A DNA stretch of 22,729 nucleotides from a virus (lineage: Duplodnaviria; Heunggongvirae; Uroviricota; Caudoviricetes), in the IMG/VR virus record IMGVR_UViG_2529293062_000009. One strand, 5' to 3'. Positions 3,594-11,331 of the stretch are shown piece after piece. Numbering within the stretch: position 1 is the stretch's first letter; each line of letters opens with the position of its first letter. The notes beneath the pieces were generated by a model. It had not been told where the DNA came from, made no database searches, and was given only the letters and a program-made list of their open reading frames with translations. The position numbers and the translations under genes are program-made.

Positions 3594-4444
3594 GCACCAT
3601 CCTGAAATGGGCAGGAAATAAAACCGCCATAATGTCCGAACTGAAAAAGCATCTTCCTGCTGGCCCGCGACTGGTTGAACCTTTCGCGGGTTCCTGTGCA
3701 GTGATGATGGAGACGGATTACCCCAGCTATCTTGTTGCGGATATTAATCCTGATTTAATCAACCTCTATAAAAAGGTTGCTGCTGATTGTGAGGCGTTTA
3801 TATCTCGTGCCAGAGCTTTATTTGAGGAAGCAAACAGGGAGGTGGCTTATTACAACATAAGGCAGGAGTTTAATTACTCCACTGAAATTACTGATTTCAT
3901 GAAAGCGGTATATTTCCTGTATCTCAATCGTCACGGTTACCGTGGTTTATGTCGCTATAACAAGAGCGGGCATTTCAACATTCCCTACGGTAATTATAAA
4001 AATCCGTATTTCCCTGAAAAAGAAATTCGCGCATTTGCAGAGAAAGCCCAGCGGGCAACGTTTATCTGCGCCAGCTTTGATGAAACGCTGGCGATGTTGA
4101 AGGTGGGGGATGTGGTGTATTGCGATCCGCCTTATGACGGTACGTTTTCCGGCTATCACACTGATGGTTTCACTGAAGATGATCAGTATCACCTGGCATC
4201 CATTCTTGAACATCGGTCATCAGAAGGACATCCGGTCATTGTTTCTAACAGTAACACGTCTTTGACCCGGTCCCTTTATCGTAATTTCACTCACCACTAC
4301 ATCAGGGCGAAACGCAGCATCGGCGTTGCAGCGGGGGAGGGAAAATTTGCAACAGAGATGATTGCCACTAAATCTGCTAATTGGTTTAGTGCCGATTTTA
4401 GTAGGGGACGTGACTCTACTGTTATTTTCGGGGTGCAAGTGTGA
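3590..4444 (+). CDS. dam: Dam-family DNA N6-adenine methyltransferase
   Basis: ATG 3590 with SD GGAGGTG, overlapping the upstream stop (ATGA). N-terminal ILKWAGNK motif (Dam FxKWAGGK-like) and catalytic DPPY (CDPPYDGTF). Confidence 0.85.
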
Positions 4445-5271
4445 AAGAAATGCACCACGGAATTCATCATTTCCATGGGACGCCTGTCTGGGGAAGTGCT
4501 GGCGACGTTCATCGTATTGCGGTGAGCGGAGCTGGCGCTTTCGTCTCCTATGTACGACCAGATCAGATTGCGGCGTCCATTCAGCACGCTCAGGTCGTCG
4601 GCATTGATAACGGCGCATTTTCTGCATGGGTGCGTGGGCTAAAAATTAACTGGAGTGATTTTTATAAATGGCTCCTGAACTATTACCACCATCCTAAGGT
4701 CGCTTTTTTTGTCATTCCTGATGTTGTGGACGGAGGTGAACGTGACAATGATGCCCTGATAAACGAAGTTCCGAAAATGTTCTACGGGAAGGCAACTCCC
4801 GTCTGGCATCTGCACGAGTCAATCGATCGGCTTATCGAGCTATGTCGTGAATGGCCTCGTGTCTGCTTTGGATCGTCTGGTGAATATGCGGCTATCAGAA
4901 CTGCGCACTGGCATCGTCGTATGCAGGACGCTTTTGAAGCAATTTATTGCCGACACAATTTCAAAACAGCTGTTCATGGTTTGCGCATGCTTGACGGTCG
5001 TGTGTTGGGAAATTACCCACTGGCGACTGCCGACAGTACAAATCTTGCCTGCAATGTCCCCAAATTTAATAGCAAATATCCTGAGCTGACGCGGGCTATT
5101 CAGGAGGCTGAGTATTCGCGCAATCTGACGGAAAAGGAGCTGAAAGCTGTCATTCTGAAAAACCGTTGCGCAATTTTAAAAGGTGCAATTGAAGCTGTTC
5201 GCCCACCTTCAGTTTCTGATTGGCTGTCGAATGGTTTGCAGCCTTCACAGCTCGAACTGGAGATTGCGTAA
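4441..5271 (+). CDS. hypothetical early protein, possibly TGT-fold (DpdA-like) DNA-modification enzyme
   Basis: 276-aa ORF; start GTG 4441 (overlapping the dam stop) or ATG 4450. Weak by-eye resemblance to tRNA-guanine transglycosylase motifs (TPVWG; IDNGAFS vs DSGGFQ; FFVIPD vs FDECT; FGSSGE vs GGLAVGE). Function not established. Confidence 0.4.
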
Positions 5272-7643
5272 TGAACTACAGCTATTCCTGGAATGCTGAG
5301 AAAAAAGCAATCAATCCTTACGTAGAGACGGAAGAGCAATCTTCAGTTTCTGCGCTTTCAAACCTGATCGCTCTGTACGCTGCCGATAACGAGCAGGAAC
5401 AGCTGCGCCGCGAGGCACTGAGTGATCAGGTCTGGGAGCGTTATTTCTTTAATGAATCCCGTGATCCTGTCCAGCGCGAAATGGAGCAGGATAAGCTCAT
5501 TAGTCGGGCAAAGCTGGCGCATGAGCAGCAGCGTTTTAATCCAGATATGGTCATTCTGGCGGACGTTAATGCCCAGCCTTCCCATATCAGCAAGCCACTG
5601 ATGCAACGTATTGAATACTTCAGCAGCCTGGGCAGGCCAAAGGCTTATTCCCGCTATTTGCGTGAGACGATTAAGCCATGTCTGGAACGGCTGGAGCATG
5701 TACGCGACTGTCAGCTATCCACTTCTTTTCGCTTTATGGCAAGCCATGAAGGGCTGGACGGCCTGCTGATCCTGCCTGAAATGAGTCAGGATCAGGTGAA
5801 ACGCCTGTCCACCCTGGTAGCTGCGCATATGAGCATGTGCCTTGATGCAGCTTGTGGCGATTTGTATGTCACCGATGACGTTAAGCCAGAAGAAATCCGC
5901 AAGACATGGGAAAAGGTGGCAGCGGAAACCCTGCGTCTGGATGTCATCCCGCCTGCGTTTGAGCAACTCCGCCGGAAAAGAAACCGCCGTAAACCCGTGC
6001 CCTATGAACTCATTCCGGGTTCGCTGGCGCGTATGTTGTGCGCTGACTGGTGGTACCGGAAATTATGGAAGATGCGTTGCGAATGGCGGGAAGAGCAGTT
6101 GCGTGCTGTCTGCCTGGTCAGCAAAAAAGCATCTCCCTATGTCAGCTATGAAGCCGTGATGCATAAACGTGAGCAGCGCCGTAAGTCGCTGGAGTTTTTT
6201 CGTTCTCATGAACTGGTGAACGAAGACGGCGACACGCTGGACATGGAGGATGTGGTAAACGCCAGCAGCAGCAACCCTGCGCATCGCCGCAATGAGATGA
6301 TGGCCTGTGTTAAAGGCCTGGAGCTTATCGCGGAAATGCGCGGTGACTGCGCCGTTTTCTACACCATCACCTGTCCGTCACGTTTCCATTCCACGCTAAA
6401 TAATGGCAGGCCCAACCCAACTTGGACAAATGCGACGGTAAGACAAAGCAGTGATTATCTGGTCGGCATGTTTGCTGCATTTCGTAAGGCGATGCACAAA
6501 GCCGGATTGCGGTGGTATGGCGTGCGGGTGGCTGAGCCGCATCATGACGGTACAGTTCACTGGCACCTGTTGTGTTTTATGCGCAAAAAAGACCGCCGCG
6601 CCATCACTGCATTACTGCGTAAGTTTGCCATCCGTGAAGACCGCGAGGAACTGGGCAATAACACTGGGCCGCGCTTTAAGTCTGAGTTGATTAACCCGCG
6701 CAAAGGTACGCCAACAAGCTACATCGCGAAATACATCAGTAAGAACATTGACGGGCGTGGTCTGGCTGGCGAGATCAGCAAGGAAACGGGGAAATCCCTG
6801 CGTGATAATGCTGAATACGTTAATGCCTGGGCGTCTCTGCATCGTGTTCAGCAATTCCGCTTCTTTGGCATTCCGGGGCGTCAGGCTTACCGTGAACTGC
6901 GATTGCTGGCTGGTCAGGCGGCAAGGCAACAGGGGGACAAAAAAGCAGGTGCGCCGGTACTGGATAACCCGCGCCTTGATGCCATCCTGGCTGCTGCTGA
7001 TGCTGGTTGTTTTGCCACCTACATCATGAAGCAGGGCGGCGTACTGGTTCCCCGCAAATATCACCTCATCAGAACCGCTTATGAAATCAACGAAGAGCCG
7101 ACCGCCTATGGCGATCACGGCATTCGTATTTATGGCATCTGGTCACCTATTGCAGAGGGCAAGATCTGCACTCATGCCGTGAAGTGGAAAATGGTTCGTA
7201 AGGCCGTTGATGTTCAGGAGGCGGCAGCCGACCAGGGCGCTTGCGCCCCTTGGACTCGTGGCAATAACTGTCCCCTTGCTGAAAATTTGAACCAACAGGA
7301 GAAAGATAAATCAGCTGATGGGGACCCCAGAACGGACATTACCAGCATGGATGACAAGGAGTTGCACGAATACCTGCACAGTATGAGCAAAAAAGAGCGC
7401 CGGGAACTGGCAGCAAGGTTACGCCTGGTGAAACCGAAACGGCGTAAAGACTACAAACAGCGAATTACAGACCATCAGCGACTGCAGCTCGTGTATGAGC
7501 TGAAGTCCAGAGGATTTGATGGCAGCGAGAAAGAGGTCGATTTACTCCTTCGCGGAGGCAGTATTCCGTCAGGAGCAGGCCTGCGTATCTTCTATCGGAA
7601 CCAGCGTTTGCAGGAAGATGATCAGTGGCGGAACCTGTATTAA
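5271..7643 (+). CDS. A: Replication initiation endonuclease (P2 gpA-type rolling-circle HUH nickase)
   Basis: 790 aa from ATG 5271 (TAATG overlap with the upstream stop). HUH-like [10 protein letters not shown] and tyrosine motif YIAKYISK. Size and position as P2 A (about 761 aa as recalled). Confidence 0.88.
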
Positions 7644-7796: not shown

Positions 7797-7985
7797 ATGC
7801 AGGACTATTTTTTGGAGTCTTTGAAGCTCCAGCGCATTGATTTTTTTCTTAAGCTTGTAGCGGCTAGTGAGTGTAGTGATGAAGAGAAGGGGCTGGCTCT
7901 GCAGTGGGTTTCTGAATTGACTGATGAACTCATGGCAAAAATCAGAACCCACGAATACAACCGCTCAATGGATGTCATCAGCTGA
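7797..7985 (+). CDS. small SOS-regulated protein, candidate Tum-like antirepressor
   Basis: ATG 7797 with SD AGGAGG 7787..7792; 62 aa (MQDYFLESLKLQRIDFF...); directly downstream of the LexA box and upstream of the DinI-like gene. Confidence 0.5.
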   Translation: MQDYFLESLKLQRIDFFLKLVAASECSDEEKGLALQWVSELTDELMAKIRTHEYNRSMDVIS

Positions 7986-7995
7986 GGTGACTTTT

Positions 7996-8229
7996 ATGCG
8001 CATTGAAATAATGATCGATAAAGAGCAGAAGATTAGCCAGTCTACCCTGGACGCCCTTGAATCCGAGCTTTACCGCAATCTGCGCCCCCTGTATCCCAAA
8101 ACGGTAATTCGCATTCGCAAAGGTAGCTCTAACGGTGTGGAACTAACCGGACTGCAACTGGACGAAGAAAGAAAACAAGTGATGAAAATTATGCAGAAGG
8201 TGTGGGAAGACGACAGCTGGCTGCATTAA
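7996..8229 (+). CDS. DinI-family protein
   Basis: ATG 7996 with SD GAGGTG; 77 aa, MRIEIMIDKEQKIS...KVWEDDSWLH, resembling E. coli DinI (MRIEVTIAK...TWESADDWF). Confidence 0.75.
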   Translation: MRIEIMIDKEQKISQSTLDALESELYRNLRPLYPKTVIRIRKGSSNGVELTGLQLDEERKQVMKIMQKVWEDDSWLH

Positions 8230-8364
8230 GAAACGTTGCTGGCGTCTGAACTTGCTTCTGGCGTCAGCAAGGTTGAACAACGAGCCCTTGCGAGGCGTTA
8301 GCTCTGTAGTGCATGTCTATGCCGCATGAGATCGCATGATCGTTTGAGGATCGTTTTTGCTAAG

Positions 8365-8388
8365 GCCCGCCAGAACTGGCGGGCTTTT
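8365..8388 (+). terminator. Rho-independent terminator downstream of the DinI-like gene
   Basis: GC-rich inverted repeat GCCCGCCAG / CTGGCGGGC with a short loop, followed by TTTT. Confidence 0.6.
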
Positions 8389-8481
8389 GCGTAGATCATG
8401 CAGGTGCATGAAAACCACTACATAAAGCGGGCAGGCGTGGCGGGGATACGAGCGCGCGTTAAGCCATATAAGAGTTATATA

Positions 8482-8510
8482 TTGATTTGATTGCTGGACA
8501 TACATACAGT
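8482..8510 (+). promoter_or_regulatory. putative sigma70 promoter for the kinase operon
   Basis: TTGATT, 17-nt spacer, TACAGT, about 95 nt upstream of ATG 8605 in an AT-rich tract; by-eye match only. Confidence 0.3.
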
Positions 8511-8604
8511 ATCGCTCTATCATCTAATAAATCTTAGGGTATTTGACAATGTTTGGATAAAATGGAACCTAACTTATTCATAATCCGCTAAACAGGGATG
8601 TCAG

Positions 8605-9519
8605 ATGCCATACCAATTGGTAGAGCTTAGCCCCGTAGCTAACGATCTTGAACAGTTAGGAACCAAAGAGAAGTTTTGGTTCTATTTCTCCGATGACACT
8701 GTAAATTTGCAGTTGTTTAAGTACTCTAGGCCAGGTACTGGCGAGCATTGGTCTGAAAAGTGTGCTGCTGAGTTATGTCATTTGCTTAACATTCCACATG
8801 CTAGCTATGATTTGGCGCGATACAATGGTCGATTCGGTGTGGTGACTCAGAATATCATTCCATCTGGTTTCCGGATGGTAATGGGAAATGAAGTGCTTCA
8901 CAGTTCGACATTCGATTATCCTGGGCCTTTACAAGCCGGGGAAAAGCCGGTAAGGGTCAGAGAACACACTGTCACAAGGGTCTTGGGTTGTTTAGATAGG
9001 GAATCTATCAAGCCTCCTCCGAGTGTATATGATCTAACCGGGCTAAATGCAGCAGATGTATTTTGTGGATATTTGATGCTCGATGCACTTGTGAGTAATC
9101 AAGATCGCCACCATGAAAATTGGGCAATCATGCTTAACAATGAAACTGGTGAGCAGTTTTTGTGTCCAACATACGATCATGCCGCTAGTTTAGGAAGGGA
9201 GATGTTAGATGATGAGCGTAACGAACGGCTTAATACTAAAGATAAAAATCGACAAATCCCATGTTTTGTAAGAAAAGCTCGCTCTGAGCTATTCAAAGCA
9301 AAAACTGATAAAAAGCCCTTGCTGACTGTTGAAGCATTTCAACATGCAGTTGAAGGGAGAGTTGCCGCTCGCGACCATTGGTTAGGTAAGTTGAGCGTTT
9401 TAACAGAAGATTCCATTACAGATGTGTTTAACCAAGTGCCTTCATCGTGTATATCCGACAGTGCACGTAGATTTGCAACGTTAATGGTAATGGAAAATCG
9501 CAGAAGGTTACTAGAATGA
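8605..9519 (+). CDS. HipA-like Ser/Thr protein kinase (compact, HipA C-terminal kinase core)
   Basis: 304 aa. Gly-rich loop-like GTKEKFWF (residues 19-26), catalytic DxHxxN as D167-R-H169-H-E-N172 within LVSNQDRHHENWAIM (nt about 9094..9120), downstream CPTYDHAASLG resembling the HipA Mg-binding Asp motif. Stop overlaps the next start (ATGA). Confidence 0.75.
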   Translation: MPYQLVELSPVANDLEQLGTKEKFWFYFSDDTVNLQLFKYSRPGTGEHWSEKCAAELCHLLNIPHASYDLARYNGRFGVVTQNIIPSGFRMVMGNEVLHSSTFDYPGPLQAGEKPVRVREHTVTRVLGCLDRESIKPPPSVYDLTGLNAADVFCGYLMLDALVSNQDRHHENWAIMLNNETGEQFLCPTYDHAASLGREMLDDERNERLNTKDKNRQIPCFVRKARSELFKAKTDKKPLLTVEAFQHAVEGRVAARDHWLGKLSVLTEDSITDVFNQVPSSCISDSARRFATLMVMENRRRLLE

Positions 9520-10256
9520 CTAATACAAACTCCGTTTACGTCGCATGGCAGGCACCAGATACCAGAGACTGGCATGTTGTTGGTAACTTGCAAGAGCGCA
9601 AATCGGGGTATGTTTTCAGGTATACCAAAGGTGCTCTTAAATCTTCTAAATTTACAAAGTTTAGCGGCATGAGTGATGTTCGTGAAACTTATGTATCGGA
9701 AGAATTGTTTCCTCTTTTTAAAAATCGCCTTTTATCACCGAGACGTCCAGAGTATCCGAGTTTCATTAAATGGCTTGGATTTGAAGAAGATAAGGTAAAT
9801 CCTATCGATATTCTTGCTCGCTCGGGAGGCTTACGAAGCACTGATCAGCTGCAGATTTTCAAAAAAATTGATTTTGATTCTGATGGTAACTTTGAGCATT
9901 TTTTCTTCTTACATGGACTTGGTTACTTGAATAGCTTAGCTAATGCTCGTGTATCTGAATTGAAACCGGGGCAAATTTTGCGTCTTTGCTTGGATCTTCA
10001 AAATGAATACGATGGGGATGCTGTTGTCGTTCGTGCAGATAAACCAGCTGAAATCGTTGGTTACTGCCCTAGGTATTTAAGTAATGACATCAAGAAGATG
10101 TTATTGGATGATCCAAAATCAATCACTTTAACGGTCGAAAAGATTAGCGATGATGCTCCTCATAACTATCGGTTATTATGTAAATTATCAGGGGTACTAA
10201 GCCAAGCCTGTCAATCGACGCTGATTCCTCAAGATGAGTTTGAACCTATTGAGTAA
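9516..10256 (+). CDS. HIRAN-motif protein (C-terminal HIRAN-like domain), partner of the HipA-like kinase
   Basis: 246 aa, translationally coupled to the kinase gene. C-terminal LRLCLDLQNEYDGDAVVVRADKPAEIVGYCPRYLSN matches the HIRAN pattern (NPYDxNAIxV...VGYIPR); N-terminal part unassigned. Confidence 0.55.
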   Translation: MTNTNSVYVAWQAPDTRDWHVVGNLQERKSGYVFRYTKGALKSSKFTKFSGMSDVRETYVSEELFPLFKNRLLSPRRPEYPSFIKWLGFEEDKVNPIDILARSGGLRSTDQLQIFKKIDFDSDGNFEHFFFLHGLGYLNSLANARVSELKPGQILRLCLDLQNEYDGDAVVVRADKPAEIVGYCPRYLSNDIKKMLLDDPKSITLTVEKISDDAPHNYRLLCKLSGVLSQACQSTLIPQDEFEPIE

Positions 10257-10263
10257 ATGAAGA

Positions 10264-10290
10264 AAAGCCACCAAACGGTGGCTTTTCTTA
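10264..10290. terminator. Bidirectional rho-independent terminator between the convergent HIRAN gene and portal gene
   Basis: AAAGCCACC-aaac-GGTGGCTTT with A-tract on the left and T-tract on the right; the portal stop codon is at 10291..10293. Confidence 0.65.
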
Positions 10291-11331
10291 TTATGGGGCT
10301 ATATCTAGCGAGTAGGTATCAAACCGTATCGCCTCCTTGCCAAGCCAATCATTCATCTCCTGTAATCGCTTTTGTAGTGGCATTAGCTCATTTCGGACGA
10401 ATACACGGCTTGCCTTCTCCACATCCCCAAACCCCCCAACATTATTCGGCATAATCCCCATCATTTGCGGTGGCACACGGTGCGCTGCCATCATGTCATC
10501 GCGGCTGACATTTTTGATATTCAGAAACTCATCCTTCGCCGCGACTTCTGACAATGGGATGATCTGAAGTCCGTCCTTTTTGCCGTTAGGCGAGTACATA
10601 AACAGATTGCGGAAGTTACCTGGTCCTTTGGCGCTTTTCATCGCGTTACGGAGGTTGTTTACATCCTCCTGGTTCTGCGCGGCGTCGGTCATGTACATGA
10701 TGAAGCCTGCATGACTGCCGTTAATGTAATACTTTCGACGGAACAGCGTGGCGGACTCGTTGAGCAGGGCTGACGGAATGGCAGAAAGATAACCAGGCAG
10801 GCCGTAGATCTCCTGGTTGATGTCCGGTTCCATCAGATGAAAAATGTTGCCTTTCGTGAACTGATACGGCTGTGTAGTCATGCCGTATTGCACAAACCAG
10901 TAGGTATCAAGGTCTAACCCGCGTCGGGTGTATTTTGCCAGTGCAGGCTCAAGGGCGATAACTTCACCGAAGCGGTTCGTGCGTTTCTCCAGGTAGGCGT
11001 TACCAAAAACCAGATAGTCCTGTACAAAACGCGAAAAAGCCTGCTGGCTGAGCAGCGGGTGAGGGATGTAGGTGCTGGTCAGAATGTTGCACTTCACTGC
11101 AATCGGTGAGCTGTGATGCACGGCGGCGCGGAAGGTTCGCGCCAGTCCGTCGAAACTCACAGGCGGCTCGTACCAACGATCCATCTGTACGCATTCCACA
11201 TAGTCCAGCAGTTCGCGGCGGTCCAGAACAGGAACGGGATCACCGAAGCTGAATGCTTCGGCTGAAGTCTGGCTTTTATGCTGGATCTGTTTCGTCGACG
11301 CAGCGCGGTTCTTCTTACTCTTTCCCATCAA
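10291..11331 (-). CDS. Q: Portal protein (P2 gpQ-type)
   Basis: 346 aa, minus strand, directly downstream of the terminase gene and overlapping its stop; size and position as P2 Q (about 344 aa as recalled). Confidence 0.88.
   Translation of the reverse strand: MMGKSKKNRAASTKQIQHKSQTSAEAFSFGDPVPVLDRRELLDYVECVQMDRWYEPPVSFDGLARTFRAAVHHSSPIAVKCNILTSTYIPHPLLSQQAFSRFVQDYLVFGNAYLEKRTNRFGEVIALEPALAKYTRRGLDLDTYWFVQYGMTTQPYQFTKGNIFHLMEPDINQEIYGLPGYLSAIPSALLNESATLFRRKYYINGSHAGFIMYMTDAAQNQEDVNNLRNAMKSAKGPGNFRNLFMYSPNGKKDGLQIIPLSEVAAKDEFLNIKNVSRDDMMAAHRVPPQMMGIMPNNVGGFGDVEKASRVFVRNELMPLQKRLQEMNDWLGKEAIRFDTYSLDIAP

What the first reader, a model, noticed from the sequence alone, without database searches (positions are those of the whole stretch)
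8605..10256. Kinase/HIRAN two-gene operon in the prophage cargo slot: candidate undescribed defence or toxin system
Two translationally coupled genes (ATGA overlap at 9516..9519) form a self-contained unit between replication gene A and the portal gene, the slot where P2 carries its tin and old exclusion genes. The first product has HipA-kinase hallmarks: GTKEKFWF near the N-terminus, DxHxxN as D167/H169/N172, and a downstream YDHA motif. The second has a C-terminal HIRAN-like motif (QNEYDGDAVVV...VGYCPRYL); HIRAN domains recognise 3' DNA ends at stalled or replicating forks. The operon is visibly more AT-rich than the flanking phage backbone and is bracketed by terminator hairpins at 8365..8388 and 10264..10290. 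I do not recognise a HipA-like kinase paired with a HIRAN protein as a named system. A DNA-end sensor coupled to a growth-arresting kinase would fit an abortive-infection logic, but that is inference.
Basis: partly seen in the sequence, partly recalled or inferred. Interest (0 to 1): 0.88.

Follow-up and report, generated by a model that had tools for sequence, protein, structure and literature searches.

The report
Split HipA kinase with HIRAN partner
This E. coli P2-like prophage carries a real two-gene kinase/DNA-end-binding module, but it is the already catalogued "hipIN" / PADLOC PDC-M03 candidate toxin-antitoxin or phage-defence system, which was predicted in 2021 and has still not been tested experimentally.

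The parts
8362..8387 (+). Upstream rho-independent terminator-like hairpin (11-bp stem then a T-run). It ends the DinI-side transcription unit and lies in the conserved backbone, not in the cassette.
   Evidence: RNA fold -23.4 kcal/mol, z -4.65, 0 of 200 shuffles as stable; sequence.
8434..8452 (+). cos-like 19-mer GGCGTGGCGGGGATACGAG. It is context that marks the left edge of the variable slot.
   Evidence: 14/19 identical to P2 cosL, with GCGCG shared directly after it. Unique in the window. Backbone similarity to Klebsiella P2-like phages ends about 15 nt later, near 8467. That it functions as cos is inferred.
8495..8523 (+). Candidate sigma-70 promoter (TGGACA-17-TATCAT) about 80 nt upstream of the kinase start; weak evidence.
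   Evidence: 10/12 consensus match. The scan found fewer sites in the region than in shuffles, so this is only a candidate.
8605..9519 (+). hipI-type gene: a 304-aa HipA-superfamily core Ser/Thr kinase lacking N-subdomain-1. It is the putative toxin or effector.
9516..10256 (+). [quoted passage not shown] It is the putative antitoxin and sensor.
10260..10289 (.). Bidirectional terminator hairpin (13-bp stem) between the convergent hipN and portal genes.
   Evidence: -21.0 kcal/mol (z -5.65) on the + strand and -20.4 kcal/mol (z -7.28) on the - strand.

Best explanation
The cassette is a hipIN-type 'split HipA' kinase module (PADLOC PDC-M03) carried as cargo in the A-to-portal hotspot of an E. 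coli P2-like prophage. Shown here: protein 1 (HipI-type) is a core HipA/CtkA-fold kinase with intact catalytic residues and no N-subdomain-1. Protein 2 (HipN-type) supplies that missing subdomain as a HipS-like domain fused to a HIRAN domain whose 3'-end pocket residues are conserved. The two genes are translationally coupled and almost never separated in evolution. [quoted passage not shown] The HIRAN domain binds DNA 3' ends that appear during phage infection, such as injected genome ends or replication and recombination intermediates. That binding would relieve the inhibition. The freed kinase would then phosphorylate an essential translation factor, most likely an aminoacyl-tRNA synthetase as for HipA (GltX) and HipT (TrpS), arresting growth before the competing phage completes its cycle (abortive infection). 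My step-wise confidence is: identity as hipIN/PDC-M03 about 0.95; toxin-antitoxin behaviour about 0.65; anti-phage role about 0.55; HIRAN as the trigger sensor about 0.35.
For: Identity: PADLOC hits; fold matches to CtkA, HipT and HipA for protein 1 and to HIRAN plus HipS and the HipA N-domain for protein 2; catalytic register D167/H169/N172/D191 matching HipA D309/H311/N314/D332; HipN 20-72 aligning to HipA 11-65; the published definition of hipIN. Functional coupling: 78 of 79 related loci with room downstream, from Gamma- and Deltaproteobacteria, Cyanobacteria, Acidobacteria, Planctomycetes and Clostridia, have a HipS-like+HIRAN ORF directly downstream. 56 of 79 junctions overlap, 34 of them by 4 nt. 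The kinase co-varies more with the HipS-like domain than with HIRAN (partial r 0.68 vs 0.38; bootstrap difference 0.30, 95% CI 0.14-0.47). DNA-end sensing: HLTF N91/Y93/D94/G109/K113 correspond to HipN N163/Y165/D166/G182/R186, and N163, D166, G182 and R186 are invariant. Defence context: the slot is the validated P2 defence hotspot. The same pair travels in a Pseudomonas integrase island beside a PIN/FitA TA and Fic, in an Escherichia AlpA/primase island, as a 2-gene insertion in V. cholerae, and next to the integrase of Vibrio Vinavirales elements. It is AT-rich relative to the backbone. There is no HipB/HTH gene in the cassette, as in hipIN.
Against: I found no experiment on any HipI/HipN pair; a 2025 paper still says the link 'remains to be investigated'. 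The only related construct tested, pFR108 from a P2 hotspot (a fused HipL-like kinase plus exonuclease), is listed among systems without detected activity on eight coliphages. However, its kinase shares only the catalytic loop with this one. Sequence-level links to HipA are weak: Pfam is below the gathering score and hhalign to single sequences gave E 0.05-0.08. I could not model the complex, so the inhibitory contact is inferred. The co-variation result could partly reflect the faster, noisier evolution of the HIRAN domain. The target and the trigger are unknown.
Confidence: 0.5

Rival explanations
1. It is a plain addiction (post-segregational killing) module that stabilises the prophage. 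HipI is the toxin and HipN the labile antitoxin. The HIRAN domain would serve as the DNA-binding or autoregulatory part that HipB provides in hipBA and hipBST, with no role in sensing phages.
For: No HTH/HipB gene is present, so some other element must regulate the operon. TA modules are common cargo of mobile elements, and about a quarter of P2 hotspots carry plasmid-partition genes, i.e. maintenance functions. The pair also occurs in chromosomal islands.
Against: Characterised HIRAN domains bind DNA 3' ends rather than duplex operators, and the end-binding pocket residues are the invariant ones here (PMC8262856 section 15). The cassette sits in a slot where several tested systems are anti-phage. 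An integrated prophage gains little from post-segregational killing.
Confidence: 0.2
2. It is not a toxin-antitoxin pair but a two-subunit holoenzyme. HipN would complete the kinase, as N-subdomain-1 does within HipA, and tether it through HIRAN to DNA ends. There it would phosphorylate end-associated phage or host proteins such as replication, recombination or packaging factors.
For: In HipA the equivalent subdomain is an integral part of an active kinase. The strict 1:1 coupling and co-variation fit an obligate complex as well as they fit a TA pair. The gene order (kinase first) is the reverse of hipBST. The closest solved relative, CtkA, is not part of a known TA pair (its biology is from my own knowledge).
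Against: Free-standing HipS is experimentally an antitoxin of HipT (PMC10627512). No substrate evidence exists. Related short kinases pair with varied putative antitoxins (Stl-like, resolvase-like), which fits a TA logic.
Confidence: 0.15
3. It is a lysogenic-conversion function unrelated to phages, for example persistence or stress tolerance of the lysogen triggered by host DNA damage: HIRAN would sense stalled forks and the kinase would slow growth.
For: HipA is the classic persistence kinase. Eukaryotic HIRAN proteins act at stalled forks. The neighbouring backbone gene encodes a DinI-like SOS modulator.
Against: DinI belongs to the conserved backbone and is seen with many different cargos. 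The patchy, mobile distribution (21 of 5426 complete E. coli genomes, all >=99% identical) and the hotspot location fit conflict systems better.
Confidence: 0.1

Closest known systems
hipIN modules (HipI kinase + HipN) of Gerdes, Baerentsen & Brodersen 2021, mBio (PMC8262856)
   Same: A short core kinase (their range is 279-321 aa; this one is 304 aa) with the Gly-rich loop near the N-terminus. The downstream gene encodes a HipS-like domain plus a C-terminal HIRAN. The operon is bicistronic with no HipB. They describe a subclade mixing Proteobacteria and Cyanobacteria, which is what my 80-locus survey shows.
   Different: Nothing in the architecture differs. Their set held only 14 hipIN modules, and I could not check whether this protein or a close relative was among them because the held copy of Table S1 is truncated.
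PADLOC phage-defence candidate PDC-M03 (A and B)
   Same: Both proteins match full-length at 2e-122 and 7e-93, and the genes are adjacent. A 2026 paper describes PDC-M03 as HipA plus HIRAN domain proteins.
   Different: PDC-M03 is a candidate defined by genomic association. It is not a validated system.
HipBST of E. coli O127:H6 and Legionella (PDB 7AB3, 7VKB, 7WCF)
   Different: There is no HipB. The HipS-like domain is fused to HIRAN. The gene order is reversed (kinase first). Sequence similarity is not detectable by HMM searches. The kinase is closer to CtkA than to HipT.
HipL kinases, and the P2-hotspot 'Exonuclease + HipA' system pFR108 (Rousset et al. 2022)
   Same: They combine the same three parts (kinase core, HipS-like and, as defined for HipL, HIRAN), and pFR108 comes from a P2 hotspot (the printed pFR108 sequence is cut before any HIRAN part).
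   Different: The parts are fused in one polypeptide and accompanied by a DEDD exonuclease. The kinase shares only the catalytic loop with this one (37% over 51 aa). No DEDD exonuclease is present here or in the 80 related loci. pFR108 showed no detected activity.
CtkA (JHP940) of Helicobacter pylori, PDB 3AKJ
   Different: 15% identity. To my knowledge CtkA has no known HipS/HIRAN partner, and it is described as a secreted pro-inflammatory kinase.
P2 old and tin exclusion genes
   Same: They are also non-essential, AT-rich anti-phage cargo in the gene A-to-portal interval next to cos.
   Different: There is no homology. In P2 they lie between A and cosR and are transcribed leftward, whereas this cassette lies between the cos-like site and the portal gene.

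Membership tests
HipA-superfamily Ser/Thr kinase (Pfam HipA_C, PF07804) | Profile match above Pfam's gathering score | tested here: not met
   The window protein scores 20.7 bits against a cut-off of 30.5 (E 3.6e-4). 31 of 32 family members match at E<=0.01, best 3.4e-8.
HipA-superfamily Ser/Thr kinase (Pfam HipA_C, PF07804) | HipA/HipT/CtkA kinase fold | tested here: met
   [not shown]
HipA-superfamily Ser/Thr kinase (Pfam HipA_C, PF07804) | Catalytic D-x-H-x-x-N loop, Mg-binding Asp, and Gly-rich loop with Lys | tested here: met
   D167/H169/N172/D191 align with HipA D309/H311/N314/D332. D167 and D191 align with Asp at CtkA chain positions 155 and 179. All four, and G19-T-K-E-K23, are invariant in 32 sequences.
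HipA-superfamily Ser/Thr kinase (Pfam HipA_C, PF07804) | Protein kinase activity and growth inhibition | not testable with these tools
   Requires expression and phosphorylation assays.
hipIN module (Gerdes et al. 2021) | Short core kinase (279-321 aa) without N-subdomain-1 and with the Gly-rich loop near the N-terminus | tested here: met
   304 aa with G19 in the first beta-hairpin of the model. Definition.
hipIN module (Gerdes et al. 2021) | [quoted passage not shown] | tested here: met
   [not shown]
hipIN module (Gerdes et al. 2021) | Bicistronic operon without a HipB/HTH partner | tested here: met
   ATGA overlap. No Pfam domain in the small ORFs of the cassette region. 78 of 79 related loci keep the pair.
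hipIN module (Gerdes et al. 2021) | Phylogenetic placement in a HipI subclade of main clade XI | not tested
   The held copy of Table S1 is truncated. The taxon mix of relatives (Proteobacteria plus Cyanobacteria) agrees with their fourth HipI subclade.
PADLOC PDC-M03 | Adjacent genes matching the PDC-M03A and PDC-M03B models | tested here: met
   2.1e-122 (residues 2-304) and 6.8e-93 (residues 1-244).
HIRAN domain (PF08797) | Profile match above the gathering score, and the HIRAN fold | tested here: met
   [not shown]
HIRAN domain (PF08797) | Conserved 3'-end binding pocket (HLTF N91, Y93, D94, H110, K113) | tested here: met
   N163, Y165, D166, Y183 and R186 align to them (E 1.1e-3). N163, D166 and R186 are invariant. 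The HLTF sequence was verified against the PDB. Residue roles are from the HLTF literature cited in PMC8262856.
HIRAN domain (PF08797) | Binding of DNA 3'-OH ends | not testable with these tools
   Requires binding assays.
HipBST tripartite TA | Three genes hipB-hipS-hipT with an HTH HipB and a free-standing HipS | tested here: not met
   No HipB, HipS-like domain fused to HIRAN, and kinase gene first. It may work like HipBST but is not a member.

The most novel reading that the evidence does not exclude
Probability: 0.06. Interest if true: 0.85.

Novelty: already known. Interest (0 to 1): 0.3.

Why it matters
If the published hypothesis is right, this would be a clean, two-protein example of how a HipA-type kinase toxin is switched on: a defined molecular cue (a DNA 3' end read by a HIRAN domain) acting through a HipS-like inhibitory domain. 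That would link the persistence-kinase field to anti-phage immunity and give a bacterial function to a domain best known from eukaryotic fork-remodelling enzymes. The E. coli P2-prophage copy is a convenient model: native host, small cassette, clear mutational targets. None of this is a new discovery from this window. The value is as a well-defined and still untested experimental target.

Tried and rejected
- **Single-sequence and profile HMM searches against PDB sequences:** they reached only CtkA (E 0.43, then 1.1e-3) for the kinase and nothing meaningful for HipN. Fold comparison was needed.
- **hhalign of the family profiles against single HipA and HLTF sequences:** the alignments were correctly registered but statistically weak (E 0.048, 0.083 and 1.1e-3). 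I used them only for residue mapping.
- **Megablast of the cassette against sequenced phages:** no match. tblastn found only four Vibrio Vinavirales elements and one distant C. difficile phage hit.
- **DEDD exonuclease partner:** I looked for the partner reported next to other HipA-HIRAN operons using the pFR108 exonuclease as query. There were no hits in the window or in 80 related loci. This was one query only, so sensitivity is limited.
- **HipB-like regulator:** small ORFs around the cassette have no Pfam hit apart from the backbone DinI.
- **Exact P2 cos sequence:** absent at up to 3 mismatches. A diverged cos-like site was found by eye and confirmed as unique.
- **Gerdes Table S1:** I tried to confirm that this accession is listed, but the held file is truncated.
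- **Rousset pFR108 negative result:** I considered it as evidence against defence and rejected it as uninformative, because that kinase is only remotely related.
- **Pseudokinase or decaying remnant:** rejected, because all catalytic residues are invariant and all 21 E. coli copies are intact and at least 99% identical.
- **Literature:** searches under HipI, HipN, hipIN, PDC-M03 and HIRAN plus defence terms found no experimental study. Subscription-only papers are not covered.

Full report
**1. The observation**

The window contains two same-strand ORFs, 8605..9519 (304 aa) and 9516..10256 (246 aa), which overlap in the sequence ATGA. GC content falls to 0.38-0.45 across them, against 0.51-0.62 in the flanking genes.

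- 8362-8387 folds at -23.4 kcal/mol (z -4.65).
- 10260-10289 folds at -21.0 kcal/mol (z -5.65). It folds equally well on the opposite strand, so it is a bidirectional terminator between the second gene and the convergent portal gene.

Megablast shows that the window is an E. coli P2-like prophage. RefSeq annotates the flanks of a genome whose copy of the pair is 100% identical as replication endonuclease (gene A) and DinI-like protein on the left, and portal and terminase on the right. It annotates the two genes themselves as "HipA domain-containing protein" (WP_001146828.1) and "HIRAN domain-containing protein" (WP_000185756.1).

**2. What the proteins are**

*Protein 1.* It matches Pfam HipA_C only below the gathering score (20.7 vs 30.5 bits), although 31 of 32 family members match that model. 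Its AlphaFold model (pLDDT 84) is closest to these solved structures:

Residue mapping to a HipA sequence that I verified against PDB 2WIU puts D167/H169/N172/D191 on HipA D309/H311/N314/D332, the catalytic loop and the Mg-binding aspartate. D167 and D191 also align with Asp at positions 155 and 179 of the CtkA chain. The protein starts almost directly with the Gly-rich loop (G19-T-K-E-K23). It therefore lacks the N-terminal subdomain of HipA.

*Protein 2.* It has a HIRAN domain above Pfam's cut-off (1e-13). It also has, at residues 20-72, a weak match to Couple_hipA, the HipA N-terminal domain (22 of 32 members match). Its model (pLDDT 88.6) matches two separate sets of structures:

Aligning the family profile to the verified HLTF HIRAN sequence maps HLTF N91/Y93/D94/G109/H110/K113 onto N163/Y165/D166/G182/Y183/R186. 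Of these, N163, D166, G182 and R186 are invariant.

So protein 2 supplies the HipA subdomain that protein 1 lacks, fused to a DNA-3'-end-binding module.

**3. It is already described**

- PADLOC's library matches the two proteins full-length as PDC-M03A (2e-122) and PDC-M03B (7e-93). [quoted passage not shown]
- Gerdes, Baerentsen and Brodersen (mBio 2021, PMC8262856) defined this exact architecture as hipIN: a short HipI core kinase followed by HipN, which is a HipS-like domain plus HIRAN. They proposed that HIRAN recognises DNA ends of invading phages or replication intermediates, which activates the kinase and causes abortive infection.
- Rousset et al. (Cell Host Microbe 2022, PMC9122126) defined the gpA-gpQ interval of P2-like phages as a defence hotspot. 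Their Table S5 lists WP_001146828 with WP_000185756/7 in many E. coli P2 loci, alongside varying co-cargo such as Mrr_cat or DarT/Macro. Their Table S6 labels a Vibrio prophage pair "HIRAN-kinase (HipA_C + Couple_hipA/HIRAN)".
- Both proteins have their own PHROG families, labelled unknown function.

I found no experimental test of any HipI/HipN pair. A January 2025 paper still says the function "remains to be investigated". The one related construct that was tested is pFR108, a fused HipL-like kinase with a DEDD exonuclease from another P2 hotspot. It is listed among systems without detected activity. Its kinase shares only the catalytic loop with this one, so that result says little about this pair.

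**4. What my analysis adds**

- *Distribution in E. coli.* The pair is present in 21 of 5426 complete E. coli genomes, always intact and at least 99% identical.
- *Family size.* Homologs number about 955 (kinase) and 535 (HipN) in the word-indexed search. An exhaustive profile search finds 315 HipN-like cluster representatives at E<=1e-30 among 1.84 billion, and nearly all of the 150 best hits listed are 240-265 aa. The family is distinct but modest in size.
- *Pairing.* In 80 loci from one-genome-per-species contigs (35-89% kinase identity), 78 of the 79 with room downstream carry a HipS-like+HIRAN ORF immediately downstream on the same strand. None is fused to the kinase. The loci come from Gammaproteobacteria, many Cyanobacteria, Deltaproteobacteria, Acidobacteria, Planctomycetes and a Clostridia MAG.
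- *Translational coupling.* 56 of 79 junctions overlap, 34 of them by the same 4 nt.
- *Co-variation.* Across 67 complete pairs, kinase distances track the HipS-like domain more closely than the HIRAN domain (partial r 0.68 vs 0.38; bootstrap difference 0.30, 95% CI 0.14-0.47). This is what a kinase-HipS-like contact would give. The faster evolution of HIRAN may contribute to the difference.
- *Mobility.* The module moves between unrelated elements. I found it in a Pseudomonas integrase island beside a PIN/FitA TA and Fic, as a two-gene insertion in V. cholerae, in an Escherichia AlpA/DUF3987/primase island, and next to the integrase of 14.6-kb Vibrio Vinavirales (PM2-like) elements.
- *No extra partners.* No HipB-like gene and no DEDD exonuclease accompanies it here.

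**5. Position in the prophage**

The canonical P2 cos sequence is absent. A unique 19-mer at 8434-8452 is 14/19 identical to P2 cosL and shares the GCGCG that follows it. Similarity to Klebsiella P2-like phages stops about 15 nt later, near 8467.

In P2 the order is A, orf91, tin, old, cosR | cosL, tQ, Q. Here the cassette (about 8468-10290) would lie between cos and the portal gene. That is the same hotspot as tin and old, but on the other side of cos. That this site functions as cos is inferred, not shown.

**6. Mechanism**

The best-supported model is the published one.

Shown:
- An intact HipA-fold kinase lacking N-subdomain-1.
- A partner that carries that subdomain (HipS-like fold) fused to a HIRAN domain with a conserved 3'-end pocket.
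- Obligate genetic coupling of the two genes.
- Location on mobile elements and in a defence hotspot.

Inferred by analogy with HipBST: there, HipS is the antitoxin and wedges Trp65 into the cavity formed by the ejected Gly-rich loop of HipT (PMC10627512). By analogy, the HipS-like domain would keep HipI off. DNA 3' ends produced during infection would engage HIRAN and relieve that inhibition. The kinase would then phosphorylate an essential translation component and arrest the cell.

My step-wise confidence:

| Step | Confidence |
|---|---|
| Identity as hipIN/PDC-M03 | about 0.95 |
| Toxin-antitoxin behaviour | about 0.65 |
| Anti-phage role | about 0.55 |
| HIRAN as the trigger sensor | about 0.35 |

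The rivals are:
- A prophage-stabilising addiction module in which HIRAN replaces HipB's DNA-binding role.
- A two-subunit, DNA-end-tethered holoenzyme rather than a toxin-antitoxin pair.
- A DNA-damage or persistence function for the lysogen.

A dead remnant is excluded by the invariant catalytic residues and the intact, near-identical copies.

**7. Verdict**

It is not undescribed. It is the hipIN / PDC-M03 module, already listed as P2-hotspot cargo, with the same mechanistic hypothesis in print since 2021. What remains open is experimental: toxicity, neutralisation, target, trigger and phage range. I rate novelty as already known (as a predicted, unvalidated system) and interest at 0.3. It is a good, tractable experimental target, but it would not surprise a specialist.

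Noticed in passing
window 8434-8452 (context 8400-8470): A unique cos-like 19-mer, GGCGTGGCGGGGATACGAG, is 14/19 identical to P2 cosL. It places the kinase/HIRAN cassette between cos and the portal gene, whereas P2's tin and old lie between gene A and cos. Backbone similarity to Klebsiella P2-like phages ends about 15 nt after it.
   Followed up: partly
window 7924-8229 and 7797-7985: The backbone genes left of the cassette are a DinI-like protein (Pfam DinI 1.3e-22, phrog_189) and a small conserved hypothetical (phrog_698; RefSeq WP_001154434). Both recur with many different cargos in Rousset's Table S5, so they are not part of the system.
   Followed up: partly
L001:4913-5443 (minus strand), E. 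coli CFSAN061772: Some strains with an identical kinase/HIRAN pair carry an extra 176-aa hypothetical gene (WP_000246368.1, no Pfam hit) between DinI and the cassette. Other P2 loci combine the pair with Mrr_cat or DarT/Macro genes. The slot therefore stacks several cargos.
   Followed up: partly
L092 (Vibrio phage 10N.222.46.E12_PE001, PQ189286.1), locus 3935-5649: A 37%-identical kinase plus a HIRAN gene, overlapping by 4 nt, sit next to the integrase of a 14.6-kb Vinavirales (PM2-like) temperate element. The same module is thus cargo in an unrelated phage lineage.
   Followed up: partly
window 8650-8673 (kinase residues E16-K23): Aligning motifs by eye (G19-T-K-E-K23 with HipA G153-A-Q-E-K157), the invariant E16 falls where HipA has its autophosphorylated Ser150 and HipT has Ser57. 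The only hydroxyl residue in the loop is the invariant T20. This could mean a different mode of autoregulation. I did not check it structurally.
   Followed up: no
window 8890-8955 (kinase residues 96-117): This is the only low-confidence stretch of the kinase model (pLDDT below 50). It is variable in length across homologs and may be a flexible substrate- or partner-binding loop.
   Followed up: no
[not shown]
   Followed up: no
L078 (Paraliomyxa miuraensis), locus about 7803-8867: This is the one locus where the distance filter found no adjacent HipN. A later pass did find a HipS-like hit starting with a 4-nt overlap, but I saw no clear HIRAN part. It may be a HipS-only (hipJS-like) variant.
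   Followed up: no
window 10257-10454: A 65-aa ORF starts right after the hipN stop codon and runs antisense through the 3' end of the portal gene. It has no Pfam hit and is most likely spurious.
   Followed up: partly
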